Sequence record: KX523699.2 | DNA from: Salmonella phage IME207 | Length of the DNA: 47,564 bases | Strand: one strand, 5' to 3' | Part shown: piece by piece, positions 2,477 through 45,400 of the stretch | Layout of the letters: each line of letters opens with the position of its first letter | How positions within the stretch are numbered: position 1 is the first letter of the stretch | Program-made: the position numbers and the translations under genes | The notes under the pieces: generated by a model | What the model was told of the DNA's origin: nothing | Seen by the model: only the letters and a program-made list of their open reading frames with translations | Database searches by the model: none

Positions 2477-2552
2477 ATCTGCATCACCACACTTGACCAA
2501 TCTACACCGAGCGCATAGTATAATCTACATCAGGTTTATCGGAGATATAACT

Positions 2553-2759
2553 ATGCGCAGCTATGCAGGATTCACACAGGAGGAAAAAGAGCAGGTTTAT
2601 TCACTGGCACGGGCTGGTGTGCCTGATGAGGTGATTTGCCGTCGATATGACATCGACGAGGATTTCCTGCTGCGCGTTCTGGATGATGTTTTCGTTAACC
2701 TGCAAGAGAAACGCGGGTACAAGGGCATCTGCTGCAAGAATGATTTTTTGAGAGGGTGA
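2553..2759 (+). CDS. hypothetical protein
   Basis: Internal ATG with GGAG RBS 9 nt upstream. Lies downstream of a TTGACC promoter-like region carrying two AATCTACA motifs. Confidence 0.35.
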   Translation: MRSYAGFTQEEKEQVYSLARAGVPDEVICRRYDIDEDFLLRVLDDVFVNLQEKRGYKGICCKNDFLRG

Positions 2760-2965
2760 TTATGAGAGATTTTGTAAGAGATTTCCTGTTCATTGGCATC
2801 AAGTACTCCATTGCACTGGCGATTGCTTTCCCGTTTATCTGGTTGATTAGATGGGAAGCTCCAAGTATTGATGAAATTCTAAACTGGCAGGTTTTCAGGC
2901 TTGTTATCGGATTGTGGGTTATTTCAGCCATTGCCTCATGGTGGATTAATCATGTTCGGAAATAA
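2756..2965 (+). CDS. hypothetical membrane protein
   Basis: 69 aa with two hydrophobic segments. ATGA-type overlap with the upstream gene. Confidence 0.4.
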   Translation: MIMRDFVRDFLFIGIKYSIALAIAFPFIWLIRWEAPSIDEILNWQVFRLVIGLWVISAIASWWINHVRK

Positions 2966-3320
2966 ACTAAAGAAAATAATACGCGATGCTGCGGATAAGA
3001 AATACACCAAAAAGATTGACATCTCATTCATTGATGGCGCTGGCCTGTACAATCACGCCTGCCACCTGAATGCAGTAAACCGCGCACGGGATGGGAGTTC
3101 GTGCGCAGTGGTTGAGGTTGTGGTGATTGATGATAAGCCAGTGACTGCACATTACATCAATATGCAGGCTGACGGTACATACATTGATTACACGCTTGGC
3201 TGGCACTGGTCTGGTGCAGATTACCGATTCGTGCGATTTGTTCCGTTTACCGAATGGTCTGATATTACAGGTTCGTTAAGCAGACTGAAGTCTGAACTAT
3301 GTAAGCCAGTGGCTAAATAG
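2952..3320 (+). CDS. hypothetical protein
   Basis: ORF 2901-3320, with a likely internal ATG at 2952. Confidence 0.4.
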   Translation: MFGNKLKKIIRDAADKKYTKKIDISFIDGAGLYNHACHLNAVNRARDGSSCAVVEVVVIDDKPVTAHYINMQADGTYIDYTLGWHWSGADYRFVRFVPFTEWSDITGSLSRLKSELCKPVAK

Positions 3321-3367
3321 CAGAAGTTGTTAATGGTGACTGATGGTGAACTTTGTTGAGGTGAGTG

Positions 3368-3535
3368 ATGAAAATTGAAGAAACAGTTAACTGTATGGCA
3401 ATCAATGTGTTCACGGATTACGACACCATTTGTGTGCAGGATTTTGCTGGTGATTATGTCAGGTTTGATAAACATCAGGCCGCACAACTAATCGAAGTCC
3501 TGCAACGCTGGGTAAATGGTGAGGAGATTGAGTGA
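3368..3535 (+). CDS. hypothetical protein (55 aa)
   Basis: GAGGTGAG RBS. Stop overlaps the next start (GTGATGA). Confidence 0.3.
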   Translation: MKIEETVNCMAINVFTDYDTICVQDFAGDYVRFDKHQAAQLIEVLQRWVNGEEIE

Positions 3536-3723
3536 TGAGCGTTTATTTTATTCATGCTGAAGTCTTTGTTAATAATGACTGTGCGGCAGAAAAGTTAAGT
3601 GGAGTGGTGGTTGCCACCAACGCAGTTGATGCTCTAGAGAATTTCTGGCGTGATGATATGGTGTCATCTTTAACATCTCAAGGCATCAAAGTAGTAATCG
3701 ACAAATTCGAAAAGGTGGAGTGA
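3535..3723 (+). CDS. hypothetical protein
   Basis: Translationally coupled ORF. Confidence 0.4.
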   Translation: MSVYFIHAEVFVNNDCAAEKLSGVVVATNAVDALENFWRDDMVSSLTSQGIKVVIDKFEKVE

Positions 3724-3971
3724 TGGCAGCTACGATTCTTACTCTTATCGTTACGGCGTTCTTTGTTTATATCCTGATAAGAAATCAGCTTGTTTATATC
3801 GCCCGTGGGAGATTTATAGACTACTTCTATACAGAAGACCCTGATGGTTATTCATCCGGGATGGTGTTTCATGAGGCGCTACCAAGCTACGATGAGATGC
3901 TGTGGAAATTCTGGGTGTGGCCTCTATCAAAATTCTATCCGGCCTACAGAAATCGAAATAGCAATAAGTGA
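3720..3971 (+). CDS. hypothetical membrane protein
   Basis: N-terminal TM helix. ATGA overlap with the upstream ORF. Confidence 0.4.
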   Translation: MMAATILTLIVTAFFVYILIRNQLVYIARGRFIDYFYTEDPDGYSSGMVFHEALPSYDEMLWKFWVWPLSKFYPAYRNRNSNK

Positions 3972-3981
3972 CCATGCTATA

Positions 3982-4009
3982 ATCCCTCCATCGTGAGGGA
4001 TTTTTTATT
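3982..4009 (+). terminator. rho-independent terminator
   Basis: ATCCCTC-catcgtg-AGGGAT stem-loop followed by TTTTTTATT. Confidence 0.6.
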
Positions 4010-4017
4010 GGTGACAT

Positions 4018-5430
4018 ATGTCAAAAGTTGATGCATTAAACGCCTATATACGCGACCGCGTAGCGAACAATAACCGGGCGCTTCAGCAACAAAGGCTTTG
4101 TGCTGGCGGGAAGAACCTTGACCAGAAGCACGACAGGCTTTGGCAGGAATGCGGCTACCCACAGGAAATCACCGCCGAGATGTTCCGCTATGCATACGAG
4201 CGACATCCAGCCGCCGCCGCTGGTATTAACCGCATTATTAATAAATGTTGGCAGAAATACCCTGAAGTGGTCGAAGATGGCGAGGATGATAAGAACTCAA
4301 CGCCGTGGGAGTTGTCCATCAACGACATGATGAAGCGCGCCTATCCGTTCATCAAAGAGGCTGACAAGCGCAACGCCATCAACCGCTATTCCGCTGTTAT
4401 CCTGCAAATCCGTGACGGAAAGCAGTGGAGTGAGCCGGTAGACGTCACCAAAACCCGCCGCATTAAAGATAAATCCATCGTCCGCTTTATTCCGGTGTGG
4501 GAAGAGCAGCTACGCGTCAGCGCATGGAATAATGACGAAACCAGCGAAGACTACGGCATGCCTGAGCTGTACGAATATCAGGAAAGCGCCGTGGAGGATT
4601 TCGACAGCGATGGCAAACCTGAGCGTTCCGTACAGATTCATCCTGACCGCATCATTATTCTGGCTGAGGGTAGTTTTGACGGTAGTATGTTCAGTGGCAT
4701 CCCGATGCTGCGTGCTGGATACAACAGCCTTATCGACATGGCTAAAGTTTCCGGTAGTTCTGCGGAAGGCTTCCTGAAGAATGCAAGCCGCCAACTGGCT
4801 GTTAACTACACGAAGGATAACGTAACGCCAGCAAGCCTCGCGCAGTCGATGGGCGTCGATATTGAAGAACTCACCGACATCATGAATGAGAACATTGAGG
4901 CGTTGAACTCCGGGATTGACGCAGCTATGTTCACAATGGGGGCGGATGCAAAGGTTCTCGCTGTGACGCCAGCCGACCCGAAGCCAACATGGGAAGTTGC
5001 TGCCAATCAGTTCGCTGCATCAATGGCGCTTCCGTTCACCGTCATTTTTGGTCAGCAGACCGGACGCCTTGCGAGCGATGAAGACAAGATGCAGGAGGCG
5101 ATGACCGCCAAGCAGCGCCGTGAAACGTGGGTTGATTATGTCATCTCAATGTTCGTTGAGCGCATGATTCAGTTCGGCATTGTCGATAAGGCACCGGCAA
5201 ACGGCTACAAAGTTAAATGGGATGACCTACTTGCCCCATCAGAACTGGATAAAGCCGAGTTGCTGGCTAAGCTCGCCACTGCGAATAAATCCTTCTTTGA
5301 CGCTGGTCAATCTGCGTTGCTGACCGTCGATGAGGCTCGCGGCATGGTTGGTATGGAGCCGATTGAACTCGACGAAAGCTATCGCGAAGACGCACCACCG
5401 GAAGACGAAAATGAAGATACTCCGGTTTAA
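4018..5430 (+). CDS. portal protein
   Basis: 470 aa with acidic C-terminus. Sits between TerL and the head morphogenesis gene. Confidence 0.75.
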
Positions 5431-6358
5431 CGCCAGACTTCCGCAGCCGCGCATTTCTCAAAGTCTCAGCGACCCGTTAGGCGCTGCGGCTCGCCTGTCG
5501 AAGATGGGCAAGGTGATAACGCGCAAATACAAACAGCTCAGGACTCGTTCGCTTGAGTTGTTTCGCACCATTCCGAGCAGTCAGGCTAACGCAGAATCAA
5601 GCGGTCTGTATTTCTATGATTTCAGTAGTGCGCGTGCTGCTACGTTCATGGATGAGCTACAAGCGCTGATTGACGAGATTCTGCTGGAAGGTGATGATTT
5701 CGGTCACAGTAGGATGTGGGCTAATGTGTTCATCGGTGATGCATATCAGGCCGGAACGCAGAAGGCCAACTCAGAACTATCAAGCCTGTCTCCGGTTTAC
5801 GCCGAGCAGAGACCGATTGCTGCAATACTCTACAGTGAGCCTTATCTGAATCGACTGCAACTGGCTTACACGCAAGGATACTCTGACTGGCGCGGATTGA
5901 GTGATTACTCACGTCAGCAACTGGCATCCGTTATTATGGAAGGCATTGCCAGGGGTGCTAATCCTCGCGATGTTGAAGCTGATATCGTTAAGCGCGTTGA
6001 CGTGTCTCACAGCTACGCGAAACAGTTAGCGCAGACAGAAATCACCGGAACACTGCGACAAGCTAACAGGCAGGAAGTCATTGAAGCGCGCGAGGAGTTA
6101 GGAATTGAAACGGTGATGCTGTGGCAATCGGCGCTGATGAAATCAACTAGGGCTTGGCATGCGTCACGGCATGGCAAGTTCTATACACCGGAAGAGATTG
6201 ACACGTTCTATAGTGAAGTCGCCAACCGAAGGAATTGTCATTGCGCACAAACTCCTGCGTTATTAATGGATGGCAAGCCAGTTATTCTCGAATCGTCGCA
6301 GGAGAGGCTTGATAAGCAGCGCGAGGCATGGCAGTCAGCCAATAAAAAAGCCACCTGA
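5411..6358 (+). CDS. head morphogenesis protein (Mu F / SPP1 gp7 family)
   Basis: ATG at 5411 overlaps the portal end. Long head-morphogenesis-like ORF immediately downstream of portal. Confidence 0.7.
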
Positions 6359-6390
6359 TGGTGGCTTCTGCTTATTTCTTCTTAATGAAT
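6345..6390. terminator. bidirectional rho-independent terminator between convergent genes
   Basis: AAAAAAGCCACC-tgat-GGTGGCTT followed by a T-rich run. Confidence 0.6.
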
Positions 6391-6492
6391 CCTCCGCATC
6401 CACACATTGGACACATCGTGTATCTTATTCCTTTCTTTTCAACCCTATCAAGATGATGATGTACGTACTTGCACGCTACACAGATAATCATA

Positions 6493-7092
6493 TCAATCCT
6501 CCAGTTTCACGCCGGGAATTTTGCCTGCTGCAATAGCGTCGTAAATTTTCTTTGCGTGATAAAACTCATTTGGTGTGTCTGGGATACATTCAGGCATATA
6601 CCAGTCAATAGCCTCAATCGCAGCATTACGCTTCCTTTCTGCTTCTGAATGGGAAGGCCGCAGGAATCTAGCTTCAAAACAACCAAGTCCGTAGCTCATG
6701 CGAATAACTGCGGTATTCTCGACATGAGCAATCACCTCTCCACTTTCACCTTGACCGTACATTAACACTCCCTTAGGGTCTACAATTTCGCAGTGCATTC
6801 CAACTGGCGGCAGACCTTTGCTGTTCCATACTGGCTTTTGAGATTCAGCGAGCGCGGATTCATATTGCTTGCGAGATATTGACTGAAGACAATCGCTTCC
6901 AGATGCCTCCTCGTAAATGCAATTCTTGGCGAAGTCTTTGCCGTACTTTAGATAGCAATCATCATCCCAATTGCCTGTTTCGTCATAGAAATCTATGCTG
7001 TTTGTCCCATAATGGCGGCAGCACTCAATAGCCCCATCAGGCCAACCACCATGCTTAGGCAATTCTTTAACTAATAGGTCGATAAGTTTCAT
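6493..7092 (-). CDS. hypothetical protein, accessory cassette gene 3
   Basis: 199 aa. First-listed (distal) gene of a coupled antisense operon inside the structural module. No recognisable domain. Confidence 0.5.
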   Translation of the reverse strand: MKLIDLLVKELPKHGGWPDGAIECCRHYGTNSIDFYDETGNWDDDCYLKYGKDFAKNCIYEEASGSDCLQSISRKQYESALAESQKPVWNSKGLPPVGMHCEIVDPKGVLMYGQGESGEVIAHVENTAVIRMSYGLGCFEARFLRPSHSEAERKRNAAIEAIDWYMPECIPDTPNEFYHAKKIYDAIAAGKIPGVKLED

Positions 7093-7594: not shown

Positions 7595-7602
7595 CACTAA
7601 CC

Positions 7603-7746: not shown

Positions 7747-7760
7747 GATTTCTTCCTCGC

Positions 7761-7830
7761 TCTACATTTGATGTAGATACTATGCACCACCACTCAATCT
7801 ACGTCAATAGTCATTGTGATAGAATTAATC
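7761..7830 (+). promoter_or_regulatory. divergent promoter region with palindrome and AATCTACGTCA motif
   Basis: Palindrome TCTACATTTGATGTAGA at 7761-7777. AATCTACGTCA at 7796-7806. Extended -10 TGATAGAAT at 7817-7825. CAGGAGG RBS precedes the ATG at 7852. Confidence 0.45.
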
Positions 7831-10657: not shown

Positions 10658-11241
10658 TACTTACTCTCCAGTTCTTTTGCGCGAATTGCGCTGTCAATGA
10701 TGTCCTGTAAATCCTGTTCGCGTGATTTGTGTCCGCGCTCGCCAGCTTGCAACGCCTTTTTAATCAGGTGCTGCAATGCTGGATTGGTGACATTCCACGC
10801 CACGAGCACGTCGTACACATCAACAAATACACCCGGATTAATCTCGTGTAGGTATTTGTTGGCATCCGCTGGTTGTTTGCATTTATTTAACGCCGGATAT
10901 CCTTCAGGTGATGAATCGCCAACAAATGATTTGGTGTTTGCAATAAATCCTCCGCGTTTAACATCAGCTTCCGGTGCGCCAATGCATTCGTTGAGGTCTT
11001 GTTCGTCGCCTGTTACTGGCTCGCGAATACCAACCGAAAACCAATTCTCCTTATTGCCAATGAAATATGCGTTCTTTTTGTTTGGCTCCCACATGGTTGC
11101 ATGAGTTTCCAGTTTTTCGCACCACGCTAAGCGATCATCCATTCTGTGTCGTATTGCTAAGCGCACATTTGCTGGTGCTCCAACAAAATCGCAGGCGCTA
11201 CCTTTAAGCAATCTGTATCTTGTTGTCATTTCCCTCTCCAC
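10657..11241 (-). CDS. hypothetical protein with DUF3310-like C-terminal region
   Basis: C-terminus NPALQHLIKKALQAGERGHKSREQDLQDIIDSAIRA resembles the DUF3310 core motif. The N-terminal ~130 aa are unassigned. Confidence 0.45.
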   Translation of the reverse strand: MEREMTTRYRLLKGSACDFVGAPANVRLAIRHRMDDRLAWCEKLETHATMWEPNKKNAYFIGNKENWFSVGIREPVTGDEQDLNECIGAPEADVKRGGFIANTKSFVGDSSPEGYPALNKCKQPADANKYLHEINPGVFVDVYDVLVAWNVTNPALQHLIKKALQAGERGHKSREQDLQDIIDSAIRAKELESK

Positions 11242-11449
11242 TTAATCATCTCGCGTCGTGGCATTGTGACGCGGTTGTATTCATCAATATCAAAATTCTC
11301 ACGAATCATCTGGTACATCTCATCCTTAGGCATATCAGCCAGCGCCACATAGCAACGGGCAAAGTAGCGAACATCACGGAGTGTCAGCGGCTGCCGCTTC
11401 TCCACAATGCTGGTGATAATGTCCATCGGCTCGCGTCGTGGTCTTGGCA
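11226..11449 (-). CDS. hypothetical protein
   Basis: Internal ATG (MPRPRREP) with AAGGAG RBS. First gene of the cassette. Confidence 0.45.
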
Positions 11450-11454
11450 TATTT

Positions 11455-11545
11455 ACTACTCCTTTTCGAAAATTATTGTTGACCAATCTACATCATTTAG
11501 TCAATACTTATTGACGTAGATTGTACCACAACGGAAAAGGTGATG
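11455..11545. promoter_or_regulatory. divergent promoter region with inverted motif pair
   Basis: TTGACC+AATCTACATCA at 11479-11495 and TTGACGTAGATTG at 11511-11523. The two motifs are in inverted orientation. Confidence 0.45.
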
Positions 11546-12177: not shown

Positions 12178-12422
12178 GCGCACCACATATGCCAATGATG
12201 AATGATGAAGGATTGCTGGAGTGCCCATTCTGTGGGAGCGGCGAGACGACAATGGATAGAGAGGGTGGATTATCGCAAATTGTTTGCTTGCGGTGTGCCA
12301 TTGCAACTGATTTATATCAACAGGAATCATTCATAATTAAAAAATGGAATACCCGCAACGGACACCTCTACACAGCCGACGACTTCAATCATGCAGCAAA
12401 GGAACGCGATTATGGATTATAA
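12174..12422 (+). CDS. Lar-family restriction alleviation protein
   Basis: LECPFCGSGETT...VCLRCAIATD...IIKKWNTR matches the Lar signature CPFCG...C..C...WN.R. Confidence 0.6.
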   Translation: MSAPHMPMMNDEGLLECPFCGSGETTMDREGGLSQIVCLRCAIATDLYQQESFIIKKWNTRNGHLYTADDFNHAAKERDYGL

Positions 12423-12432
12423 ATCACAAATC

Positions 12433-12887
12433 ATGCGCGTGATTATCAATCATCCTGGTGCAACTCGCGCATACATTGAGAAGCATTGCGGCGGAAAACA
12501 TTCAAGCACTACAACGCATCGTTTGCATGAGATGCTTGCTCTTGCTTCATTCGCCGTGAGAAGTCAGTGATTCGTGGTGGCAAGTGGCAGTATAAATATT
12601 TCATCTCTGATGATGCGGCTGGCATTGATGATGCGATTAAGTGTCACCTGCTTGATAATGCTGGCGCGGAAGTGAAAGAAATCAGCGCCACCACTGGTAT
12701 TGATTATCGCATCGTGAAAAGCCGCATCCGCATTATGTTTCATAACGGCGATGTAACGAGAAGCTATGACCACCACAAGAAGCTGTGGCGTTACTCATGG
12801 CTGGAGCAGGAAGTAAGCGTCAGCAATTTGTTCAACTCACTTCTTCGCAACGCAAGAGGTCATCATGGGAAAAGCCAAGCGCAATAA
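12433..12887 (+). pseudogene. winged-helix DNA-binding protein interrupted by a 1-nt frameshift near 12546-12570
   Basis: ORF 12433-12570 (MRVIINHPGATRAYIEKHCGG...HRLHEMLALASFAVRSQ*) is followed by ORF 12567-12887, which starts at GTG with no RBS. A -1 join gives ...HEMLALASF-IRREKSVIRGGKWQYKY, a typical recognition-helix-plus-wing. Confidence 0.4.
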
Positions 12888-14250: not shown

Positions 14251-14373
14251 ATGAATATAATCCCTATCACTTACTTTCTCACGCTATACGCGCTCACAGA
14301 CTCACCATTGTTTGCACTGGCTACCGCCTCATGGTGCTACATCTCCCTGTGTTATAATTCGACCACAAACTAA
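14251..14373 (+). CDS. hypothetical small membrane protein (40 aa)
   Basis: Strong AGGAGG RBS 7 nt upstream. Confidence 0.3.
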   Translation: MNIIPITYFLTLYALTDSPLFALATASWCYISLCYNSTTN

Positions 14374-19634: not shown

Positions 19635-19849
19635 TGACTTATCCTTGTGTCGAATTGAGATTTGTAAAACAAATCAATACTTCCAAATACTTTGTATTCA
19701 AATTTCCCATTCTCGCGGCAAACCCACTTCTCAAACCCATAATTGTCATTATTTGCCGTCCATGTTGTCACAGAGAAAAAACCACTAGCCTGGACTATTG
19801 CGCCATTACCATCCATGTCGCCGAACTTTATAATTTTGTAACGCATCAC
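19631..19849 (-). CDS. hypothetical protein
   Basis: 72-aa ORF. Confidence 0.4.
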   Translation of the reverse strand: MMRYKIIKFGDMDGNGAIVQASGFFSVTTWTANNDNYGFEKWVCRENGKFEYKVFGSIDLFYKSQFDTRISQ

Positions 19850-20655
19850 ATCTTCTCCAGAATTGCCATAACCTCGTGAATGTCAGCAACAGGAATCTGG
19901 ATAAATTCCTCATCCTCTGCCACCACATGACCAGCAGGAAGAATTACGTGGTCGGCTGGCTTTAATAACTCAATCAGGCGTTCTACTGGCTTAATCTTTT
20001 TCGATTTCAGCACCTTCGCCGTGACCTTATCCTTGCCTTGTGCTTTTGCTTCTTCTACTGCTTCGTCGATAACTTTTACCGCATCATCTCCATGCTCGCG
20101 CGTTACCGCTACGGCGTTGGCATAGCTGATTTGCCCGGCACTGATTCGCGCTTTTACTTCCGCTGGCACATCACCAAGCGACAGATGCATTTGCACGTCA
20201 GATACTGAGCGACCTACCTTTTTGGCGATTTCTTCATTAGTCCAGCCAAAGCCTTTTAGTCGCGTATAAGCCTTTGCGCGCTCAAAAGGGTCGAGCTGCT
20301 TACCCTGACTGGATGACACCATGAAGGCGATTTTATCCGCCTCGTCGCCAGTGAAATCCTTGCACTCAATGCGAACGATTGGTGCTCCACGTTCAATTGC
20401 ACGCAGTGCGCCGAGATATCGATGCTGACCGTCAAGAATGCGGATTCCCTTCTCGTCTGGAATAACTGTTAATGCTGGTAATGGCTGGCCTGATTCCCAG
20501 CATTGCGCGAAATATTCGACATGCTGCTCATCTGCTTCACGGATGTTGTATCCCGGCTCCAGATAGATTTGCTCAACTGGCACGAGATATGTTTTGTTAA
20601 CAGCGATGCCGTTGCGCGTTTCTTTGTCTGAATAGATTTTGCTTAGTGTTTTCAT
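19846..20655 (-). CDS. ParB-like nuclease domain protein
   Basis: ParB N-terminal domain motif ILDGQHRYLGA. HTH-like middle region. Confidence 0.7.
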   Translation of the reverse strand: MKTLSKIYSDKETRNGIAVNKTYLVPVEQIYLEPGYNIREADEQHVEYFAQCWESGQPLPALTVIPDEKGIRILDGQHRYLGALRAIERGAPIVRIECKDFTGDEADKIAFMVSSSQGKQLDPFERAKAYTRLKGFGWTNEEIAKKVGRSVSDVQMHLSLGDVPAEVKARISAGQISYANAVAVTREHGDDAVKVIDEAVEEAKAQGKDKVTAKVLKSKKIKPVERLIELLKPADHVILPAGHVVAEDEEFIQIPVADIHEVMAILEKM

Positions 20656-20943: not shown

Positions 20944-21042
20944 TTATTGTTGTTTCTACATCAACAACTATAAACGCTACGCCAATCTACGTCAACAGGA
21001 ATATGCTAAAATCATGCTAATCAAACAACAGGAGATTTAAAC
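20944..21042. promoter_or_regulatory. divergent promoter region
   Basis: Palindrome TTGTTGtttctacatCAACAA at 20947-20968. On the minus strand: TTGACG, 17 nt, then TATAGT, overlapping AATCTACGTCA at 20984-20994. AGGAG RBS precedes the ATG at 21043. Confidence 0.5.
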
Positions 21043-23616: not shown

Positions 23617-23692
23617 TGGCACACCATGCAGGACTCGAACCTGCAACCAATAGCTTAGAAGGCTACCGCTCTATCCGTTGAGCTAATGGTGT
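23617..23692 (-). tRNA. tRNA-Arg (anticodon UCU)
   Basis: Folded by hand: acceptor ACACCAT/ATGGTGT, D stem GCTC/GAGC, anticodon loop CTTCTAA, T-loop TTCGAGT. CCA is encoded. 76 nt. Confidence 0.8.
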
Positions 23693-23698
23693 TTAATG

Positions 23699-23786
23699 TG
23701 GCGGATAGTACAGGATTCGAACCTGTGAACCGTTTCCGGTTTATCGGTTAGCAACCGACTGCTTTCGGCCTCTCAGCCAACTATCC
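23699..23786 (-). tRNA. tRNA-Ser (anticodon GCU), long variable arm
   Basis: Acceptor GGATAGT/ACTATCC, anticodon loop TTGCTAA, variable arm ACCG-GAAA-CGGT, T-loop TTCGAAT. CCA is encoded. 88 nt. Confidence 0.8.
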
Positions 23787-23789
23787 GTT

Positions 23790-24247
23790 GATTTAGTGCT
23801 GGTTTAAGCATTGCCAGCGTGCTTTCTTAATATCCAGCCCCGTAACCCATACATACCCCTACATATGATTGCGATAATGCTGGATATTAAGTGTTGTGGT
23901 GGCCGGTGCTGATCTCCGGCTTGCGGTTATTTCAGACTCTCACGGGCGTTTAATTGCCCCGCCGAACAGCTCTTTTCCGCAATAGCTGCAATGTCTTTCG
24001 CGCATCAGCCTGCGCATTCATCACAACGGTAAGAGCACTGATGCGCTCACTTGGTACTCCTTATCCATAACCCACGGGCTTCTGGTACACCAATGCTCTT
24101 ACCTGTTGTGTGCCGGTTACGCGTCCGGCGTCTGTCGACCGCTAATTATTTTGACCTCTTCAAATTGAGATTTCATTCATTTTGGTCACCTTCCTTTCAG
24201 AAAGTTGAAAACTCACGCATAAATCAATTCATATCTTAAGTAGACTT
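23790..24247. other. 458-bp ORF-free structured non-coding region
   Basis: 13-bp perfect inverted repeat CTTAATATCCAGC/GCTGGATATTAAG at 23827-23839 and 23880-23892. 10-bp inverted repeat GGTAAGAGCA/TGCTCTTACC at about 24026 and 24104. The only ORF here (24051-24239) has no RBS. Confidence 0.35.
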
Positions 24248-24295
24248 TAATCTACACCACAAAATAATCACTGTCAACACCTGTGATATAATCAC
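24248..24295 (+). promoter_or_regulatory. late promoter for major tail gene
   Basis: AATCTACACCA at 24249-24259, TGTCAACACC, and extended -10 TGATATAAT at 24284-24292. Confidence 0.55.
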
Positions 24296-24328
24296 CACGT
24301 TAGCAGCTAACACAATTCGGAGATCGAA

Positions 24329-25048
24329 ATGGCTATTTGTGCAAATGATAAAGGCGTTCTGGTCGGTCGTATGACCCGACTGTTCCTTGCTGAGGGGTGC
24401 GGTGATGCAGTTCCAGAGGCGGTAGACTGGAAATATTTAGGCTCAACCACCAGTAAAGGTGTTGACTACTCGCCACAGACCACTACGTCGGAAGCGGATA
24501 CCGCTGGCGGTTTTGTTTCCACTCTCGTTACCAGCTCTGATATGACCATCAGTGCAGAGGTGGAAATCCGCAAGAATGACCCAAGCGATGAGTTTGGCTT
24601 CCATCGCCTGGTTGAGATTTACGCCACTGAACTGAAAGCGCGTCGCCAGCCTTCCTTGTGGGTGCGTCAGGTGACTGGTGCAACTATCGTTACAGCGTAC
24701 TGCAACATCACCAGCATCAGCTACGAAGGTGGCACGAACGACATTGTGACTGGCAGCCTTGAGTTCAAGGTTTACGATTCTGACAGCGTTACCGTCGAAA
24801 GCCTTGAGCCTCTGGCGTTCACCACCGACCTGCGATCAACTGGCAGCACTGGCAGTCCGTTAACTGTTGCTGTTGAAGGTGGCGTTGCTCCTTACACTTA
24901 TGTATGGCGCAAAGATGGCGTGGTTGTCGGCAGCGAATCAGGCGCATCTCTGGCAAGCCCTACCGCTGGCGTGTATACCGTCACAGTTACGGATTCATCT
25001 ACTGACCCTGAAATCATCATCAGCACGGCTTGCACCGTATCCTGGTAA
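24329..25048 (+). CDS. major tail protein with C-terminal Ig-like domain
   Basis: 239 aa. The C-terminal ~90 aa (TVAVEGGVAPYTYVWRKDGVVVG...YTVTVTDS) look Ig-like. GGAG RBS. Followed by a terminator. Confidence 0.65.
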   Translation: MAICANDKGVLVGRMTRLFLAEGCGDAVPEAVDWKYLGSTTSKGVDYSPQTTTSEADTAGGFVSTLVTSSDMTISAEVEIRKNDPSDEFGFHRLVEIYATELKARRQPSLWVRQVTGATIVTAYCNITSISYEGGTNDIVTGSLEFKVYDSDSVTVESLEPLAFTTDLRSTGSTGSPLTVAVEGGVAPYTYVWRKDGVVVGSESGASLASPTAGVYTVTVTDSSTDPEIIISTACTVSW

Positions 25049-25050
25049 AG

Positions 25051-25080
25051 AAAAAGCCCCGAAAGGGGCTTTGTTTTATT
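25051..25080. terminator. bidirectional rho-independent terminator
   Basis: AAAAAGCCCCGAAAGGGGCTTTGTTTTATT. Confidence 0.75.
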
Positions 25081-25276
25081 CTTGCGGTGGTTCTGGTAGT
25101 GGCATCCAGTGAGTCACGTACTTACCATAGTGATTCCAGAATGGCTTTCTCCCGTCATCAGGAACGATGTAATAATCATGCTGAACTGCGTTATTCAACG
25201 TTTCATACACCAGGAACTCCTTATCCGTACACCCATTTCCAGGTAGCATCTCACTACACTTAATCCACTTACTCAT
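25076..25276 (-). CDS. DUF551-family protein (second copy)
   Basis: C-terminal THWMPLPEPP. Confidence 0.5.
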   Translation of the reverse strand: MSKWIKCSEMLPGNGCTDKEFLVYETLNNAVQHDYYIVPDDGRKPFWNHYGKYVTHWMPLPEPPQE

Positions 25277-25416: not shown

Positions 25417-25619
25417 TTATTATCATCGCTCTTAACTAATGCCCAAACAAGCGCCGCAACCCAGCCAATAAAACTCCATCCAACGAGAATATTCAGCACG
25501 CAGATTGCAGTCGTGTTTACGTGCTTGCGTTGCAGAGCCACAAAAGATGGCAGAAGGTACGCAAATATCACCAAACCAACAAAAAACAACAAAATAACAA
25601 CATCCATAACTAACCTCAT
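25413..25619 (-). CDS. superinfection-immunity-like small membrane protein (Imm_superinfect type)
   Basis: YLLPSFVALQRKHVNTTAICVLNILVGWSFIGWVAALVWAL matches the PF14373-type pattern LLGWtGIGWiiAliWAl. Confidence 0.5.
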   Translation of the reverse strand: MRLVMDVVILLFFVGLVIFAYLLPSFVALQRKHVNTTAICVLNILVGWSFIGWVAALVWALVKSDDNK

Positions 25620-25640: not shown

Positions 25641-25700
25641 TGAATCTACATCACCGCCTCACAGGTGTCAACACCACTGAGATGATATAATCAACATCAG
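25641..25700 (+). promoter_or_regulatory. late promoter for tail chaperone / tape measure operon
   Basis: AATCTACATCA at 25643-25653, TGTCAACACC, and extended -10 TGATATAAT at 25683-25691. Same architecture as the promoter at 24248. Confidence 0.55.

Positions 25701-29278: not shown

Positions 29279-29282
<4 letters not shown>
28806..29282 (+). CDS. minor tail protein (M-like / distal tail)
   Basis: ATGG overlap with the tape measure stop. Position. Confidence 0.45.
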
Positions 29283-33277
<3,995 letters not shown>

Positions 33278-33316
33278 TACAATATACATCAAATTCACAA
33301 AGGAGCATTTATTATA

Positions 33317-38675: not shown

Positions 38676-38712
38676 GATTAACCTCACTCATCATCATGTA
38701 AATGAATCTACA

Positions 38713-39147
38713 TCAATCCACATCAAAAGGCAAGCCAAAATAGAAAAGCGTGGCTTTTTTTAGTTCATCAAGTCCGTAAGCTATTGCGGCATAATGACCA
38801 AGTCTGCACATCTCAGTTAATACAGTTGATTGCTCCTTGCTCACTCTGCTTTTGCTTTTATCGCGGCGCTTTGCCTCAATCATTCCGCAACTGTGCTTCA
38901 CTCCCGGCGTCATTATCACATTGTCGCCTATTCCAGCCTTAACCCCCATCTTCTGGCGCTTCATCACAAACTGCACCCTGCTTGATGTGCCAGTTTCGTT
39001 GGGTACATGAAACCACAGAACATCAGGGAAGCGGTGTTGCATCCATGTGCCGTAACCAATCTGGTCAGTCTCCTCTTTCGGGCATTCTCCGCGATAACCG
39101 CTATCAAATACCCATATGCCGCTATCAAGCTGCTTCACTTTGCTCAC
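38713..39147 (-). CDS. VRR-NUC domain nuclease
   Basis: FHVPNE...GDNVIM...GMIEAKR pattern (PD-(D/E)XK VRR-NUC). Confidence 0.6.
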   Translation of the reverse strand: MSKVKQLDSGIWVFDSGYRGECPKEETDQIGYGTWMQHRFPDVLWFHVPNETGTSSRVQFVMKRQKMGVKAGIGDNVIMTPGVKHSCGMIEAKRRDKSKSRVSKEQSTVLTEMCRLGHYAAIAYGLDELKKATLFYFGLPFDVD

Positions 39148-41309: not shown

Positions 41310-41319
41310 TGCTATATCC

Positions 41320-41384
41320 TTTTATTGATGTTTCTACGTCAGTTAGCTTATACTCAATCTACACCAACAATCAAGGGTCAATTT
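41320..41384 (+). promoter_or_regulatory. promoter for primase gene
   Basis: TTGATG at 41325-41330, 17 nt, TTATAC(T). TTCTACGTCA in the spacer. AATCTACACCA at 41356-41366. AAGGG RBS. Confidence 0.55.
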
Positions 41385-42338: not shown

Positions 42339-42340
42339 AA

Positions 42341-42370
42341 GAAACCCTCCAATCGGAGGGTTTTTGTTAT
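42341..42370. terminator. bidirectional rho-independent terminator
   Basis: GAAACCCTCCAATCGGAGGGTTTTTGTTAT. Confidence 0.7.
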
Positions 42371-42672
42371 GCTTTGATGTTAACTTTTATTGCGAACACT
42401 TCCACCGGGTCATGCCCGAAGTGTGGGTGAGTGATGGTTTTAACCGTCCATCCATCGTATGGGATATCAATACGCCTGGATTTATCATCCTTCTTTGGAT
42501 ATCCTTTTGTGATAATTAACCTTTCGAACTTCCTTCCAATCTGTCCGCTATCTTTAAAGTTAATAAGGCGTTTCTTCCAGTAGTCATTGAAAAGGCGATA
42601 CTCTTCCGTTTTCTCCCCGCGAATCATGGCATCGAAGTATTCACCTTTTACAGCAAGTTGCAGGTTAGCCAT
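42367..42672 (-). CDS. ASCH domain protein
   Basis: LQLAVKGEYFDAMIRGEKTEEYR matches the ASCH GxKxxExR signature. GGAGGT RBS. TAATG coupling. Confidence 0.55.
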   Translation of the reverse strand: MANLQLAVKGEYFDAMIRGEKTEEYRLFNDYWKKRLINFKDSGQIGRKFERLIITKGYPKKDDKSRRIDIPYDGWTVKTITHPHFGHDPVEVFAIKVNIKA

Positions 42673-42929
42673 TACCGCACCTCCAGTCTCCATACCGCCT
42701 GACCAATCCGGCTGGCATAGGTGTCTTTGGATACTGCTCCGTCTTTAGCCATCTCCATAAGAATTTTGCGCAAATCTGCAGAACGCCACTCTTCATCAGG
42801 AAATTCCTTCTCCATTGCCAACCGCAAATTCCAGGTTGCTATCGTGAATGGATATTCCCCGCCGAGAGCTTTCTCTTGCAGGGCAGCCCGTGAACGCATC
42901 ACCTGCAAAACCTTCTCTTTTACATCCAT
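42672..42929 (-). CDS. hypothetical protein
   Basis: 85 aa. AGGGTAAGGAA RBS. Confidence 0.45.
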   Translation of the reverse strand: MDVKEKVLQVMRSRAALQEKALGGEYPFTIATWNLRLAMEKEFPDEEWRSADLRKILMEMAKDGAVSKDTYASRIGQAVWRLEVR

Positions 42930-42939
42930 TTCCTTACCC

Positions 42940-43131
42940 TCACTTAATCATCAATTTTGAAATGTCAACATACCCAACACAAAATCTGTGCCAGCAATCA
43001 TCAAGCACGTGGTAATTAGAGCGAATCCATACTTTGTTAATCCCACTCCAGAAAAACCACGTCGAATAACCATGCGGCCTGAAATGCCATGAACCTTCTG
43101 AGCGGCAAAGTTCGCCTGATATTGTTCTCAT
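42940..43131 (-). CDS. hypothetical Trp/Cys-rich protein (doubtful)
   Basis: 63-aa ORF with GAGGT RBS. Unusual composition, so it may be non-coding. Confidence 0.2.
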   Translation of the reverse strand: MRTISGELCRSEGSWHFRPHGYSTWFFWSGINKVWIRSNYHVLDDCWHRFCVGYVDISKLMIK

Positions 43132-44681
43132 TTCAACCTCGGATTAATGTGGACAGTATTACCAATAAAAACGCAGTAACCATCCTCTTCAAGTGATGGC
43201 AATACACTTGATCTGAGTCGGTCATAAATTTTAGGTATCCCTTTGAATGGTCGCACGTTTTTAAGTGAATCATAAAGCCACTTCACCGTTACGTTTGTTT
43301 TTCCTTTCTGAGCGGCAGAGCGTAGCTTTTCTGCAACAACATCAAATTCAGAACGCTCGCCAGCATATCCATTTGATTCAACAGCATCAGTGAATGTTTT
43401 TGTCAGTGCGTCATAAACACTGATGGCGCGACTAATCTCATTTTCGCCGATAATCTTTGAACGCTTTCCTCCATCGCACCAGTTTTCAGCAGCGTGAAAT
43501 ATTGCTGCCAGACGGATTATTTGCTTATCAGCTTTACCCATCGCGCCACGAAGAAGAACGTGGTCCCACTTACCGCCGGGAAGGAAGTTTTTCTCCCACT
43601 GATTTCGTAACAGGCCGATCATTCTTGCTGAGTCATTGTGAAGCGTCAGTTTTGTTTTTTCTGCTGACACAACATTATGTATAAATCTTGCATATTCCGA
43701 CCTCAAGCTGTCTGGCATTGGCTTGCTTACAGGGCAATCATTAACCATGTCCCAGTGTTCGCGATAGCCAAGCATTGATTGCTCTCGCAACATGAGGAAA
43801 CGTTCAGAAAGCCCGTTACCCCTGTCGCCAGCGGCAAGAATGGCATCAATACTTTCATCCTGCGCAATCACACTTATGTTTCCAAGCACATAACCAGATG
43901 AAACGCCACGACCAACACGAGCAGAGCCAATGAATCCGCCATCCCATCCTTTCAGGATGACTTCTGCGTTTGCCTTTCCACCTTCCTTTCCGTAAGAGAG
44001 GCCAAGACATGTGTTAAGAACGCTTGCCTCGTCACTTATCAGATTAAAAAAACCACCCTCATGGATTGCCTGATGCTGGACAGCCTCTGGAGTTGCGTCA
44101 GTAAGTGGATATGTAATCGTATAAAGCTCTTCCAGCTTCTCCTTTTCCCTAGCAATATCATCGCCGATTAGTGCCTTTGCATTCTGATTACTGGCCTCTT
44201 TGTATGCCTTCATCAACTCTTCGATGCGAAGATTTATTTTTATGATTTGTTTTTCCATCTTTTTGGAAAGGTTGTCATATTCAATCTTCACCGGATTCAT
44301 ATGCATTGAGTTGATAGCGGTTTTCCCTGCTGATGGAGGCTGAGAAGTAACCACGTAAAGAGAAACTGGAAGCTCTGAATGGTAATACTCAACGCTAAAG
44401 TTTCTCGTCATTGCGCTGGCAACGCACCCAAGTAAATGCATGAACGATGTATTTATTGGGAACTGAACGGCGCGAGCTGCAGCGATTGCATAACGAGACA
44501 GCAAATCAGCCCGGTGCTCACTGGTCAGTTCTGTTTCTGAGTACGTTACATCACGCTCCTTACCTTCCTTGATGTCAAGCCACATGTTTGAGCTTGGTGT
44601 CATGCCATGATGGAAGGCGACGCGAGCAGGAGATACTTTTAATTCCCTTGCTTCGTTGAAGATGTCTTGAGCTGTAATCAT
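43128..44681 (-). CDS. putative replication-associated P-loop protein (DUF3987/VirE-like)
   Basis: 517 aa. P-loop-like QPPSAGKT. Position in the replication module. Confidence 0.4.
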   Translation of the reverse strand: MITAQDIFNEARELKVSPARVAFHHGMTPSSNMWLDIKEGKERDVTYSETELTSEHRADLLSRYAIAAARAVQFPINTSFMHLLGCVASAMTRNFSVEYYHSELPVSLYVVTSQPPSAGKTAINSMHMNPVKIEYDNLSKKMEKQIIKINLRIEELMKAYKEASNQNAKALIGDDIAREKEKLEELYTITYPLTDATPEAVQHQAIHEGGFFNLISDEASVLNTCLGLSYGKEGGKANAEVILKGWDGGFIGSARVGRGVSSGYVLGNISVIAQDESIDAILAAGDRGNGLSERFLMLREQSMLGYREHWDMVNDCPVSKPMPDSLRSEYARFIHNVVSAEKTKLTLHNDSARMIGLLRNQWEKNFLPGGKWDHVLLRGAMGKADKQIIRLAAIFHAAENWCDGGKRSKIIGENEISRAISVYDALTKTFTDAVESNGYAGERSEFDVVAEKLRSAAQKGKTNVTVKWLYDSLKNVRPFKGIPKIYDRLRSSVLPSLEEDGYCVFIGNTVHINPRLK

Positions 44682-44954
44682 TTAGACCTCGTACTCTGTT
44701 GCAAATTTCTCATGAGGATTTTCTGATAACCATTCCTTTGCTCTCAAAACTGCAGCGTTTGCTTCCTCTGCCGTTTCAAACATACCAAGCTCATATCTTT
44801 TCTTGAGTACCATCACTCTCGCTCTGAATTTTTTCGATGCCTTGTGGTAATCAACACCGTAGTATCCAGTGGTTGATTTTGATGATGCAACCCACCCAGC
44901 ACCACGACCATGTTTGTTTAGTTTGCGCTTTAATAATACACCGTGATTGCTCAT
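44682..44954 (-). CDS. stand-alone AP2-domain DNA-binding protein
   Basis: GYYGVDYHKASKKFRARVMVLKKRYELGMFETAEEA is an AP2 fold like the HNH C-terminal domains. First gene of the leftward early operon. Confidence 0.55.
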   Translation of the reverse strand: MSNHGVLLKRKLNKHGRGAGWVASSKSTTGYYGVDYHKASKKFRARVMVLKKRYELGMFETAEEANAAVLRAKEWLSENPHEKFATEYEV

Positions 44955-44984
44955 TTCCGCTCCCCAATCAAGTATTTCCCCAAA

Positions 44985-45013
44985 ATACTACCACCTACTC
45001 CCCAGCATTGCAA
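44985..45013 (-). promoter_or_regulatory. candidate leftward early promoter
   Basis: On the minus strand: TTGCAA, 17 nt, then TAGTAT. Confidence 0.3.
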
Positions 45014-45033
45014 CACAACTAAAATCTGCAAAA

Positions 45034-45345
45034 GGGGTAAATTGGGTTAACGTGGGGCAACCCACCTGCCCCACGAAACTTTCCTCTAAGTATATGTAAT
45101 ATAATAAAATTATTATTATTTGGGGTAATGGGTAATATTATTATTCATATTATAGATAGAAATTAACATAATATTAACAAATTGATTATTTGAATATATT
45201 TATAAGGGGATGGGTGTGAAATCTGCCCCTTTTTACCCACGAAAAATAAAAACATTCAAATCAATGATTTACGATGAAAAACGTGGGGCAACCCACCTGC
45301 CCCACGACCTGCCCCACAGGCAAAAATTTACCCCACGAGCACGTT
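45034..45345. repeat. iteron/AT-rich region: candidate origin of replication or pac
   Basis: Perfect 28-bp direct repeats AACGTGGGGCAACCCACCTGCCCCACGA at 45049-45076 and 45280-45307. Each is a near-palindrome. Additional CCCCACGA-like copies at about 45236, 45312 and 45331. A ~130-bp core at 45090-45220 is ~80% AT. Confidence 0.5.
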
Positions 45346-45360
45346 TTTAACGCATTCCTG

Positions 45361-45400
45361 TTGACGTAGAATAGCAGCTGATGTAGATTGAACTCATCGA
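45361..45400 (+). promoter_or_regulatory. rightward early promoter
   Basis: TTGACGTAGAAT at 45361-45372, then CTGATGTAGATTG at 45378-45390. TTGACG, 17 nt, then TAGATT. Confidence 0.45.

What the first reader, a model, noticed from the sequence alone, without database searches (positions are those of the whole stretch)
2493..45390. Recurrent 11-bp motif AATCTAC(A/G)(T/C)CA at 15 or more intergenic sites, coinciding with promoters
Copies read by eye: 2499-2508, 2522-2532, 7761-7777 (palindromic), 7796-7806, 11485-11495, 11511-11523 (inverted), 20954-20963, 20984-20994, 24249-24259, 25643-25653, 38705-38715 with tandem half-copy 38716-38726, 41332-41341, 41356-41366, 45361-45372 and 45378-45390 (both inverted). 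All are intergenic and none sits in a long ORF. Several overlap a TTGAC -35 element in the form TTGACGTAGATT. Two late promoters share the architecture motif, TGTCAACACC, then TGATATAAT. This is far more conserved than sigma70 recognition requires. It points to a phage-specific regulator or operator system. Candidate binders are the stand-alone AP2 protein at 44682-44954 or the wHTH gene at 12433-12887.
Basis: seen in the sequence. Interest (0 to 1): 0.75.

Follow-up and report, generated by a model that had tools for sequence, protein, structure and literature searches.

The report
Shared operator motif at phage promoters

Summary
AATCTACRYCA occurs 10 times (0.09 expected). Its 9-base core occurs 14 times (1.0 expected): 13 copies lie in the ~7% non-coding DNA, one at a gene edge, none inside genes. 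The copies form nine clusters, covering all seven divergent gene junctions and no convergent one. The clusters are kept at the same loci in relatives, including a Klebsiella clade with only 79% capsid identity.

The motif overlaps the core (-35, spacer, -10 or start site) of every sigma70-type promoter I predict before early genes. The "late" box TGTCAACACC is really the -35 (TTGACA) of a leftward promoter whose -10 (TAGATT) is the motif itself. Late genes use seven extended -10 promoters, and only four have the motif nearby.

Both proposed binders fail:
- The AP2 protein is in about 10% of relatives.
- The wHTH gene is frameshifted here and deleted in a viable mutant that keeps the motif.

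The ParB-like protein is missing from two phages that keep the motif network. The best candidate is a 74-residue predicted winged-helix protein (11226-11450, minus strand). It is universal in the family and encoded beside the motif, and its distant homologues sit beside clade-specific motif variants. Binding is untested.

The parts
2476..2486 (+). Cluster A, degenerate copy AATCTGCATCA, about -52..-42 of promoter P_A
2499..2509 (+). Cluster A copy AATCTACACCG, in the spacer directly after the -35 of P_A
2522..2532 (+). Cluster A copy AATCTACATCA, directly after the -10 of P_A (start-site region)
2493..2521 (+). Predicted early promoter P_A, TTGACC-17-TAGTAT, before small genes 2553-3971
   Evidence: conserved in Bas77, Sf11 and E1
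7769..7779 (-). Cluster B copy TATCTACATCA. With 7761-7771 it forms the palindrome TCTACATTTGATGTAGA. It lies at the start site of the leftward promoter. The Klebsiella clade has this copy in the opposite orientation
7796..7806 (+). Cluster B copy AATCTACGTCA. It supplies the -35 (TTGACG) of the leftward promoter and sits at about -36..-26 of the rightward extended -10 promoter
7779..7807 (-). Predicted leftward early promoter TTGACG-17-CATAGT
7817..7825 (+). Extended -10 TGATAGAAT before the lysis genes
   Evidence: conserved in both clades
11485..11495 (+). Cluster C copy, in the spacers of both divergent promoters
11512..11522 (-). Cluster C inverted copy (TGACGTAGATT on the + strand), at the start site of the rightward promoter
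11475..11508 (.). Overlapping divergent promoters: TTGACC-18-AATACT (+, 11479-11508) and TTGACT-18-AACAAT (-, 11504-11475). The leftward one leads into the candidate binder gene
   Evidence: the block TAGTCAATACT is invariant in 14 relatives
20953..20963 (+). Cluster D copy TTTCTACATCA, at the start site of the leftward promoter
20984..20994 (+). Cluster D copy AATCTACGTCA. It supplies the -35 of the leftward promoter and sits at about -35 of the rightward extended -10 promoter
20967..20995 (-). Predicted leftward early promoter TTGACG-17-TATAGT (operon with the ParB-like and RusA-like genes)
   Evidence: same in ZCKp20p
21004..21012 (+). Extended -10 TGCTAAAAT before the head-tail genes
24249..24277 (-). 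Cluster E. The motif at 24249-24259 (+) supplies the -10 (TAGATT) of the leftward promoter TTGACA-17-TAGATT, which points at tRNA-Ser and tRNA-Arg (23617-23786, minus strand)
24284..24292 (+). Extended -10 TGATATAAT before the major tail gene
25643..25671 (-). Cluster F. The motif at 25643-25653 (+) supplies the -10 of the leftward promoter TTGACA-17-TAGATT, before the operon that starts at 25619
25683..25691 (+). Extended -10 TGATATAAT before the tail genes
38705..38733 (-). Cluster G. Copies at 38705-38715 and 38715-38725 (AATCCACATCA) inside the leftward replication operon. Possible internal promoter TTGCCT-17-TAGATT
   Evidence: the promoter is read by eye
41331..41341 (+). Cluster H copy TTTCTACGTCA, in the spacer after the -35 of the primase promoter
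41356..41366 (+). Cluster H copy AATCTACACCA, directly after the -10 (start-site region)
41325..41354 (+). Predicted promoter TTGATG-18-TATACT before the primase gene; same layout as P_A
   Evidence: read
45361..45389 (+). Cluster I. Two inverted copies (45362-45372 and 45379-45389), 17 bp apart, form the promoter TTGACG-17-TAGATT before the rightward small early genes
   Evidence: same layout in Bas77 and at ZCKp20p 5505-5533
11226..11450 (-). Best candidate binder: 74 aa, pI 9.6, predicted winged helix, no Pfam family, first gene of the leftward operon at cluster C
2553..2759 (+). Rival candidate: 68 aa, HTH-like pattern read by eye with an acidic third helix, pI 5.0, first gene after cluster A
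19846..20655 (-). ParB/KorB-like HTH protein. It is highly conserved but absent from SB28 and P400
44682..44954 (-).
12391..12887 (+).

Best explanation
The motif is the operator of a phage-encoded, sequence-specific DNA-binding protein that probably binds as a monomer. It sits on the core of every early, sigma70-type promoter of the phage, in one to three copies per control region.

The site itself contains a -35-like TTGAYG and a -10-like TAGATT. It is used in four registers:
- as the -35 (clusters B, D and I);
- as the -10 (E, F, G and I);
- in the spacer just after the -35 (A, C and H);
- at the start site (A, B, C, D and H).

Occupancy in any of these registers should block host RNA polymerase, so the protein would shut off early transcription after it has been made from an early transcript, as lambda Cro does.

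At four divergent junctions (B, D, E and F) the blocked leftward early promoter overlaps, back to back, a rightward extended -10 promoter for lysis or structural genes. Shut-off of the early promoter would free that late promoter, or help it directly.

The most likely binder is the 74-residue basic winged-helix protein encoded at 11226-11450 (minus strand). It is transcribed from cluster C and would therefore regulate itself.

Shown: the motif, its placement and its conservation; the presence or absence of each candidate protein; the clade-specific motif variants. Inferred: that a protein binds at all, that the effect is repression, the early/late assignment of promoters, and the identity of the binder.
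For: Enrichment and placement. The motif is strongly enriched and confined to non-coding DNA. It is at all seven divergent junctions, at none of the seven convergent ones, and at two gaps within operons.

Link to promoters. All five non-coding matches to TTGACN-16..18-TAnnnT overlap a motif copy. In the divergent phage ZCKp20p, 8 of the 15 matches to TTGACN-16..18-(T/C/A)AnnnT lie within 15 bp of a motif copy, and those eight fall in the gaps between annotated genes at the orthologous clusters.

Footprint. Motif columns are 86% identical between the two clades, against 50% for the other columns; Fisher p about 1e-11.

Selection as a site rather than as hexamers. The second copy of cluster B has opposite orientation in the two clades. 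SB28 has two motif copies, and E1 one, between a homing-endonuclease gene and the tail-fibre gene, where this window has none.

Candidate gp11226:
- It is found in 205 records, all with at least 80% coverage, which matches the family size.
- It is present in all eight genomes checked, including the natural deletion variant SB28 and the 36-kb seszw mutant.
- The AlphaFold model (pLDDT 84) has winged-helix order H-S-H-h-H-S-S. All the top Foldseek hits are winged-helix DNA binders: forkhead, MarR, IclR, CggR.
- pI is 9.6.
- The family is tiny: 14 clusters among 1.84 billion representatives. The motif is equally restricted.
- Distant homologues sit next to variants of the motif that keep WATCTAC and change the 3' part: CC(C/T) in Yersinia phage P400 and in L129, TAA in L130 and L132.
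- Residues 24-29 of helix 2 read LRDVRY in both RYCA clades, although the two proteins are only 54% identical. They differ in the other clades.
Against: - No binding, transcript or start-site data exist. Every promoter here is a consensus match, and such matches are no more frequent than in shuffled sequence genome-wide.
- The Foldseek E-values for gp11226 are not significant; the best is 0.16.
- The distant contigs were found through gp11226 homologues, so its presence there is by construction.
- gp2553 homologues and, except in P400, ParB-like genes also occur in those distant genomes. ParB-like genes lie directly beside the gp11226 homologue in L130, L132 and L133.
- At clusters B and D the motif occupies the -35 zone of the late promoter as well, so the protein could repress rather than free it.
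- Three of the seven late promoters have no exact motif copy near them.
- A host factor is not formally excluded.
Confidence: 0.6

Rival explanations
1. The motif is nothing more than promoter sequence read by host RNA polymerase: a family-specific -35/-10 flavour (TTGACG and TAGATT) with no separate binding protein.
For: The reverse complement holds TTGAYG and TAGATT. At clusters E, F, G and I these fall exactly where a -35 or a -10 belongs, with 17-bp spacers. The constant core in all clades, GTAGATW, is itself -10-like.
Against: In clusters A, C and H the copies lie in the spacer or at the start site in the opposite orientation, where polymerase reads no specific sequence. When only the -35 half or only the -10 half is used, the other half is conserved just as well. 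The second copy of cluster B flips orientation between clades. The TG in TGRYGTAGATT is not in the register of an extended -10 (read from the sequence).
Confidence: 0.1
2. The binder is the ParB/KorB-like HTH protein (19846-20655, minus strand). It would act as a global regulator that loads at many operators, as KorB does on IncP plasmids.
For: It carries the HTH_ParB and KorB domains. It is the best conserved non-structural protein: 99% identical within the Salmonella/E. coli clade and 81% in the Klebsiella clade. It is kept in the 36-kb seszw mutant. In distant contigs its gene lies divergently next to the gp11226 homologue, across a motif-bearing gap.
Against: Phage SB28 has only a 40-residue remnant yet keeps 15 motif copies, including two before its tail-fibre gene where this window has none. 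A profile HMM finds no ParB-like ORF in P400 at E up to 10 and only that remnant in SB28, although P400 has its own motif variant at eight or more intergenic sites. From my own knowledge, ParB and KorB sites are palindromes; this motif is not one.
Confidence: 0.1
3. The binder is the 68-residue HTH-like protein gp2553 (2553-2759), encoded directly after the triple motif of cluster A.
For: It is present in all eight genomes checked and is 100% identical in the 36-kb mutant. It has homologues in P400 and L132, each with the local motif variant just upstream. Its family is small and restricted to this group.
Against: It is acidic, pI 5.0. The helix that would read DNA is D-I-D-E-D-F-L-L, and it stays acidic in every clade. 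It has no Pfam or PDB relative.
Confidence: 0.1
4. A host protein of Enterobacterales binds the motif, and the phages exploit or evade it.
For: The motif is identical in phages of Salmonella, E. coli, Shigella, Klebsiella and Citrobacter.
Against: No E. coli regulator site that I know matches it; this rests on my own knowledge and was not tested. The 3' half of the motif changes between phage clades while the core stays constant, which is what a co-evolving phage protein would produce. I did not scan host genomes for the motif.
Confidence: 0.07

Closest known systems
Mycobacteriophage L5 gp71 operators and stoperators (Cluster A phages)
   Same: A short asymmetric site is repeated many times across a siphovirus genome, only in non-coding DNA. 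The L5 repressor is described as binding as a monomer (PMC9283540). The consensus differs between related phages together with repressor specificity (PMC6550527). From my own knowledge, the L5 operator overlaps a -35.
   Different: L5 has more than twenty 13-mer sites, many in short gaps inside operons, and their orientation follows the direction of transcription (PMC9283540). Here 7 of the 9 clusters are at divergent junctions and orientation is mixed. The L5 repressor has 183 residues with an HTH plus a 'Stoperator' domain and belongs to temperate phages. The candidate here has 74 residues and a winged helix, and the papers I read describe these phages as lytic (PMC5084854).
Lambda Cro at OR/OL and Mu Ner
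   Same: A small early protein (66-75 aa), encoded next to its own operators, turns down early promoters during lytic growth. Ner acts on overlapping divergent promoters. (My own knowledge.)
   Different: Cro binds 17-bp near-palindromes as a dimer, at two control regions only. Here the site is an asymmetric 11-mer at nine regions spread round the genome. There is no sequence similarity.
Phage phi29 p4 early-to-late switch
   Same: In the proposed logic, one protein blocks early promoters and favours a neighbouring late promoter. (My own knowledge.)
   Different: p4 acts at one control region with an inverted-repeat site and contacts the polymerase alpha subunit. Here nothing shows activation, and three of the seven late promoters have no exact motif copy nearby.
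T4 MotA box
   Same: At clusters B and D the motif replaces the -35 of a promoter that has a good -10. One weak fold hit is to the MotA N-terminal domain (rank 13, probability 0.66).
   Different: From my own knowledge, MotA boxes have one position (-30) and one orientation. Here position and orientation vary. No AsiA or MotA homologue was seen among the proteins scanned.
KorB operators of IncP plasmids
   Same: About a dozen operators lie at promoters around a replicon, and a KorB-domain protein is encoded in the genome.
   Different: OB sites are palindromic (my own knowledge). The motif network persists in two phages that lack the ParB/KorB-like gene.

Membership tests
Plain sigma70 promoter hexamers | The element sits at a fixed distance and in a fixed orientation relative to the start site (-35 or -10) | tested here: not met
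   It works as a -35 or -10 at clusters B, D, E, F, G and I. At A, C and H it lies in the spacer or at the start site, and orientation is mixed.
L5-type stoperator system | Asymmetric repeated site found only in non-coding DNA | tested here: met
   Asymmetric 11-mer. 13 of 14 copies are intergenic.
L5-type stoperator system | Orientation of the sites follows the direction of transcription, and many sites lie in short gaps within operons | tested here: not met
   Both orientations occur within one cluster (B, C). Only 2 of the 9 clusters are within an operon. Other same-direction gaps of 40 nt or more carry no copy.
L5-type stoperator system | A gp71-like repressor (HTH plus Stoperator domain, about 183 aa) | tested here: inconclusive
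   None of the 17 candidate proteins scanned matched a repressor family in Pfam or PHROGs. The best candidate has only 74 aa. The rest of the proteome was not scanned, and nothing was compared directly with gp71.
Lambda Cro/CI-type operators | Two-fold symmetric operator bound by an HTH dimer | tested here: not met
   The motif is not a palindrome. Spacing between copies varies: 10, 17, 23, 24, 27 and 30 bp.
T4 MotA-dependent middle promoters | Box centred at -30, in one orientation, with a -10 and no -35 | tested here: not met
   This holds only for the rightward promoters of clusters B and D. At E and F the motif starts at about -50 and -55.
ParB/KorB operator network | The ParB/KorB-like protein co-occurs with its sites | tested here: not met
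   SB28 (15 copies) and P400 (variant motif) lack the gene.
AP2-domain protein binding site | The AP2 protein is present wherever the motif is | tested here: not met
   The AP2 protein is in 22 of about 200 family records. Its Pfam AP2 score of 20.3 is below the cut-off of 33.3.
Winged-helix DNA-binding proteins (for gp11226) | H1-S1-H2-H3-S2-wing-S3 fold with structural matches to known winged helices | tested here: inconclusive
   The model (pLDDT 84, pTM 0.68) has that order of elements. The top hits are forkhead, MarR and IclR domains with TM 0.55-0.64, but the best E-value is 0.16. There is no sequence match in Pfam or the PDB.
Winged-helix DNA-binding proteins (for gp11226) | Sequence-specific binding to the motif | not testable with these tools
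   This needs a gel shift, a footprint or ChIP.

The most novel reading that the evidence does not exclude
One monomeric 74-residue winged-helix protein works as a genome-wide toggle in a strictly lytic phage. By sitting on an asymmetric site that doubles as a -35 or a -10, it turns off the leftward early promoter and hands the same stretch of DNA to an overlapping rightward extended -10 late promoter at each junction. The protein-site pair has diversified into at least three specificity classes (RYCA, CCY, TAA). These could give cross-regulation or exclusion between co-infecting lytic phages, in the way immunity groups do for temperate ones.
Probability: 0.2. Interest if true: 0.75.

Novelty: new variant of a known kind. 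Interest (0 to 1): 0.6.

Why it matters
These phages (Vi-typing phage E1, IME207, the Skatevirus group, the Klebsiella Roufvirus-like group) are widely isolated for therapy and biocontrol. One of them has been used for genome minimisation. I found no description of their transcription programme: the motif string occurs in no phage paper of the library, and the genome papers I opened do not mention promoters.

The motif gives a ready map of all control regions and suggests an early/late logic that can be tested. It also points to a small unannotated protein family as the likely master regulator. For engineering, it marks sequences that must be kept and offers a compact repressor-operator pair with natural specificity variants.

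Tried and rejected
1. Motif pairs in IMG/VR, to find other phage groups. About half the 120 loci were family members. The rest were chance matches or coding tandem repeats in low-GC contigs, so no new group came from this.
2. AP2 as binder: rejected on its distribution.
3. wHTH as binder: rejected because of the frameshift here and its deletion in a viable mutant.
4. ParB/KorB-like as binder: made unlikely by SB28 and P400.
5. gp13541 (108 aa, with an invariant basic helix): the model is a long helical hairpin with no informative fold match, and the gene is absent from P400.
6. RNA-level reading of the motif: Rfam gives only two tRNAs and an int-alpA hit elsewhere. Cluster G has no gene in the motif's direction, and copies lie between the -35 and -10.
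7. DnaA, IHF and other host sites: compared from memory only; none fits.
8. Pickard et al. 2008 on phage E1 could not be read. The seszw paper has no supplement held, so the essentiality class of the gp11226 homologue is unknown.
9. Viral-contig scans for two of the distant homologues found nothing.

Full report
**What the window is**

The window is 47,564 bases, the genome length published for phage IME207 (PMC5084854). It is about 90% identical to Skatevirus-like and E1-like lytic siphoviruses of Salmonella, E. coli and Shigella. Klebsiella phages such as ZCKp20p form a second clade, with 79% capsid identity.

**The observation**

- AATCTACRYCA occurs 10 times against 0.09 expected.
- With one mismatch it occurs 20 times against 3.0 expected.
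- The core TCTACRYCA occurs 14 times against 1.03 expected.

With my own gene calls, 6.9% of the window is non-coding. Thirteen of the 14 core copies are intergenic, one touches a gene edge and none is inside a gene. The binomial probability is about 1e-14. The motif is asymmetric and 11-12 bp long, with no conserved flanks.

Copies form nine clusters, which I label A to I: 2476-2532, 7761-7806, 11485-11522, 20953-20994, 24249, 25643, 38705-38725, 41331-41366 and 45362-45389. All seven divergent gene junctions carry a cluster and none of the seven convergent junctions does. Two clusters (A and G) lie between genes on the same strand.

**Conservation**

The same clusters are present in seven other genomes:

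| Genome | Core copies |
|---|---|
| Bas77 | 16 |
| Sf11 | 13 |
| E1 | 11 |
| ZCKp20p | 13 |
| SB28 | 15 |
| seszw_290S (36-kb engineered mutant) | 13 |

I aligned the nine regions across up to 33 relatives. The motif stands out as a conserved island. Between the window and ZCKp20p, motif columns are 86% identical and the other columns 50%, with Fisher p about 1e-11.

Two details argue for selection as a binding site rather than as polymerase hexamers. First, the second copy of cluster B has opposite orientation in the two clades. Second, SB28 has two copies, and E1 one, between a homing-endonuclease gene and the tail-fibre gene, a place where this window has none.

**Relation to promoters**

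The reverse complement, TGRYGTAGATT, holds a -35-like TTGAYG (when a T precedes it) and a -10-like TAGATT.

All five non-coding matches to TTGACN-16..18-TAnnnT in the window overlap a motif copy. In ZCKp20p, 8 of the 15 matches to TTGACN-16..18-(T/C/A)AnnnT lie within 15 bp of a motif copy, and those eight fall in gaps between annotated genes at the orthologous clusters.

The motif is used in four registers:

| Register | Clusters |
|---|---|
| As the -35 | B-left, D-left, I |
| As the -10 | E-left, F-left, G-left, I |
| In the spacer, directly after the -35 | A, C, H |
| At the start site | A, B, C, D, H |

The distance from motif to TGTCAACA is 12 nt at both loci and in both clades. The distance from TGTCAACA to TATAAT is 3, 7 or 12 nt. 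On the minus strand the element reads TTGACA-N17-TAGATT, which is a leftward promoter. At cluster E it points at two minus-strand tRNA genes. At cluster F it points at the operon that starts at 25619.

**Late promoters**

Seven matches to the extended -10 pattern TGnTAnAAT lie in or at the edge of non-coding DNA on the plus strand. Each sits just before lysis or structural genes: 3975 (portal), 7817 (lysis), 14350 (head), 21004 (head-tail), 24284 (major tail), 25683 (tail) and 33275 (tail fibre). None has a -35. Four have the motif upstream, at about -36 (clusters B and D) or at about -50 and -55 (E and F). The other three have no exact copy.

So the motif tracks the early-type promoters, not the late ones. 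At B, D, E and F the leftward early promoter and the rightward late promoter overlap back to back.

The early/late assignment rests only on gene content and promoter type. Consensus promoter matches as a whole are no more frequent than in shuffled sequence.

**Who binds**

I used presence or absence across genomes that keep the motif network.

| Candidate | Result |
|---|---|
| AP2 protein (44682-44954) | At least 80% coverage in 22 of ~200 family records; absent from Sf11, ZCKp20p, seszw and P400; Pfam score below cut-off |
| wHTH gene (12391-12887) | One ORF in Bas77 and E1, but a 1-nt deletion frameshift here; deleted in the viable seszw_290S |
| ParB/KorB-like protein | Very well conserved and kept in seszw_290S, but SB28 has only a remnant and P400 has none, even by profile search |
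| gp13541 | Models as a helical hairpin with no informative match; absent from P400 |

Two small family-restricted proteins remain: gp11226 (74 aa) and gp2553 (68 aa). Both are present in all eight genomes checked.

**The case for gp11226**

- It is found in 205 records, all at 80% coverage or more.
- It is basic, pI 9.6.
- It has no Pfam, PHROG-function or PDB relative.
- Its family has only 14 clusters among 1.84 billion representatives.
- The AlphaFold model (pLDDT 84) has the winged-helix order of elements. The top Foldseek hits are forkhead, MarR, IclR and CggR domains, but the best E-value is only 0.16.
- It is the first gene of the leftward operon at cluster C, so it would regulate itself.

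Distant homologues lie beside variants of the motif:

| Source | Identity to gp11226 | Local motif |
|---|---|---|
| Yersinia phage P400 | 33% | WATCTACC(C/T); ATCTACC is the top non-coding 7-mer, 8 of 12 copies non-coding |
| L129 | 32% | Two TATCTACCCAA copies over the gene's promoter |
| L130 | 43% | WATCTACTAA |
| L132 | 36% | WATCTACTAA; 5 of 6 intergenic ATCTAC copies have this form or ATCTACCCA |

The core WATCTAC is constant and the next three or four bases are clade-specific. In the protein, helix-2 residues 24-29 are LRDVRY in both RYCA clades, although the two proteins are only 54% identical overall. They differ in the other clades.

Two caveats apply. These contigs were found through the protein itself. 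gp2553 and ParB-like homologues are also present in several of them.

gp2553 is the less likely binder because it is acidic (pI 5.0), and the helix that would read DNA is D-I-D-E-D in every clade.

**Mechanism, and what is inferred**

That a protein binds is inferred from conservation beyond what polymerase needs. Repression is inferred from the overlap with promoter cores. Freeing or helping the late promoters is a further inference. At B and D the site also covers the -35 zone of the late promoter, so the opposite effect there cannot be excluded.

**Comparison with known systems**

- The nearest analogue is the L5 gp71 operator/stoperator network: asymmetric 13-mers at more than twenty non-coding sites, a repressor described as monomeric, and a consensus that differs between related phages (PMC9283540, PMC6550527). 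It differs in that orientation is locked to transcription, many sites lie within operons, the repressor has 183 residues in two domains, and the phages are temperate.
- Lambda Cro and Mu Ner share the logic: a small early protein next to its operators shuts down early promoters. They do not share the site symmetry or the number of sites.
- phi29 p4 shares the early-off, late-on idea.
- The T4 MotA box resembles only clusters B and D.
- KorB is excluded by the two genomes that lack the ParB-like gene.

I found no description of this motif or of these promoters in the searched literature. The 2008 paper on phage E1 could not be read.

**Verdict**

The feature is real, conserved and regulatory. 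It is a new variant of a known kind: a phage operator network.

Noticed in passing
window 12391-12887, deletion near 12541: The double winged-helix gene is one ORF in Bas77 and E1. Here a single-base deletion (GCTCTT-GCTTC against GCGCTTGGATTC) splits it into two ORFs. This is either a real pseudogene or a sequencing error in the deposited genome.
   Followed up: yes
window 3975-3983, 7817-7825, 14350-14358, 21004-21012, 24284-24292, 25683-25691, 33275-33283: Seven extended -10 elements (TGnTAnAAT), all on the plus strand and none with a -35. Each lies just before a lysis or structural gene block. They look like the late promoter class of this phage family.
   Followed up: partly
window 3975-4010: The extended -10 before the portal gene overlaps a terminator-like hairpin (3981-4002, followed by a T run). 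Transcripts from upstream would stop there, while transcripts starting at this promoter would begin inside the hairpin and escape it.
   Followed up: no
window 461-524 (+): Rfam match to int-alpA RNA (42.6 bits, gathering score 35.8) in the gap between the terminase-small-like gene and an HNH endonuclease gene.
   Followed up: no
window 45052-45076 and 45283-45307, with the 78% A+T stretch 45100-45260 between them: Two exact 25-bp direct repeats, GTGGGGCAACCCACCTGCCCCACGA, plus extra CTGCCCCAC and TACCCCAC copies, flank a very AT-rich segment in the 507-bp non-coding region next to cluster I. The E1 record annotates the same repeats. It could be a replication origin or a packaging site.
   Followed up: no
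window 23617-23786 (-) and 23787-24248: tRNA-Arg(TCT) and tRNA-Ser(GCT) lie on the minus strand, downstream of the leftward promoter of cluster E. About 450 nt between that promoter and the tRNAs have no called gene.
   Followed up: partly
window 544-1059 (+) and 29279-29893 (-): Two HNH endonuclease genes; the second interrupts the tail gene block on the opposite strand. The stand-alone AP2 protein's only other matches are weak ones (35-47% identity, partial) to homing-endonuclease genes in related and unrelated phages, so it may be a remnant of one.
   Followed up: partly
L126 (SB28) 30002-30033; L004 (E1) 29819-29827: In phages with a homing endonuclease gene before the tail-fibre gene, motif copies lie between the endonuclease gene and the fibre gene (two in SB28, one in E1), where this window has none. 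This suggests a promoter there.
   Followed up: partly
L130 3401-4520; L132 3749-4890; L133 2-464: In distant relatives the ParB-like gene and the gp11226 homologue are divergent neighbours across one motif-bearing gap. In this window the two genes are 8 kb apart.
   Followed up: partly
L003 (ZCKp20p) 24132-25262: The ZCKp20p record annotates a TnpB-family RNA-guided endonuclease gene inside the head-tail gene block of this lytic Klebsiella phage.
   Followed up: no
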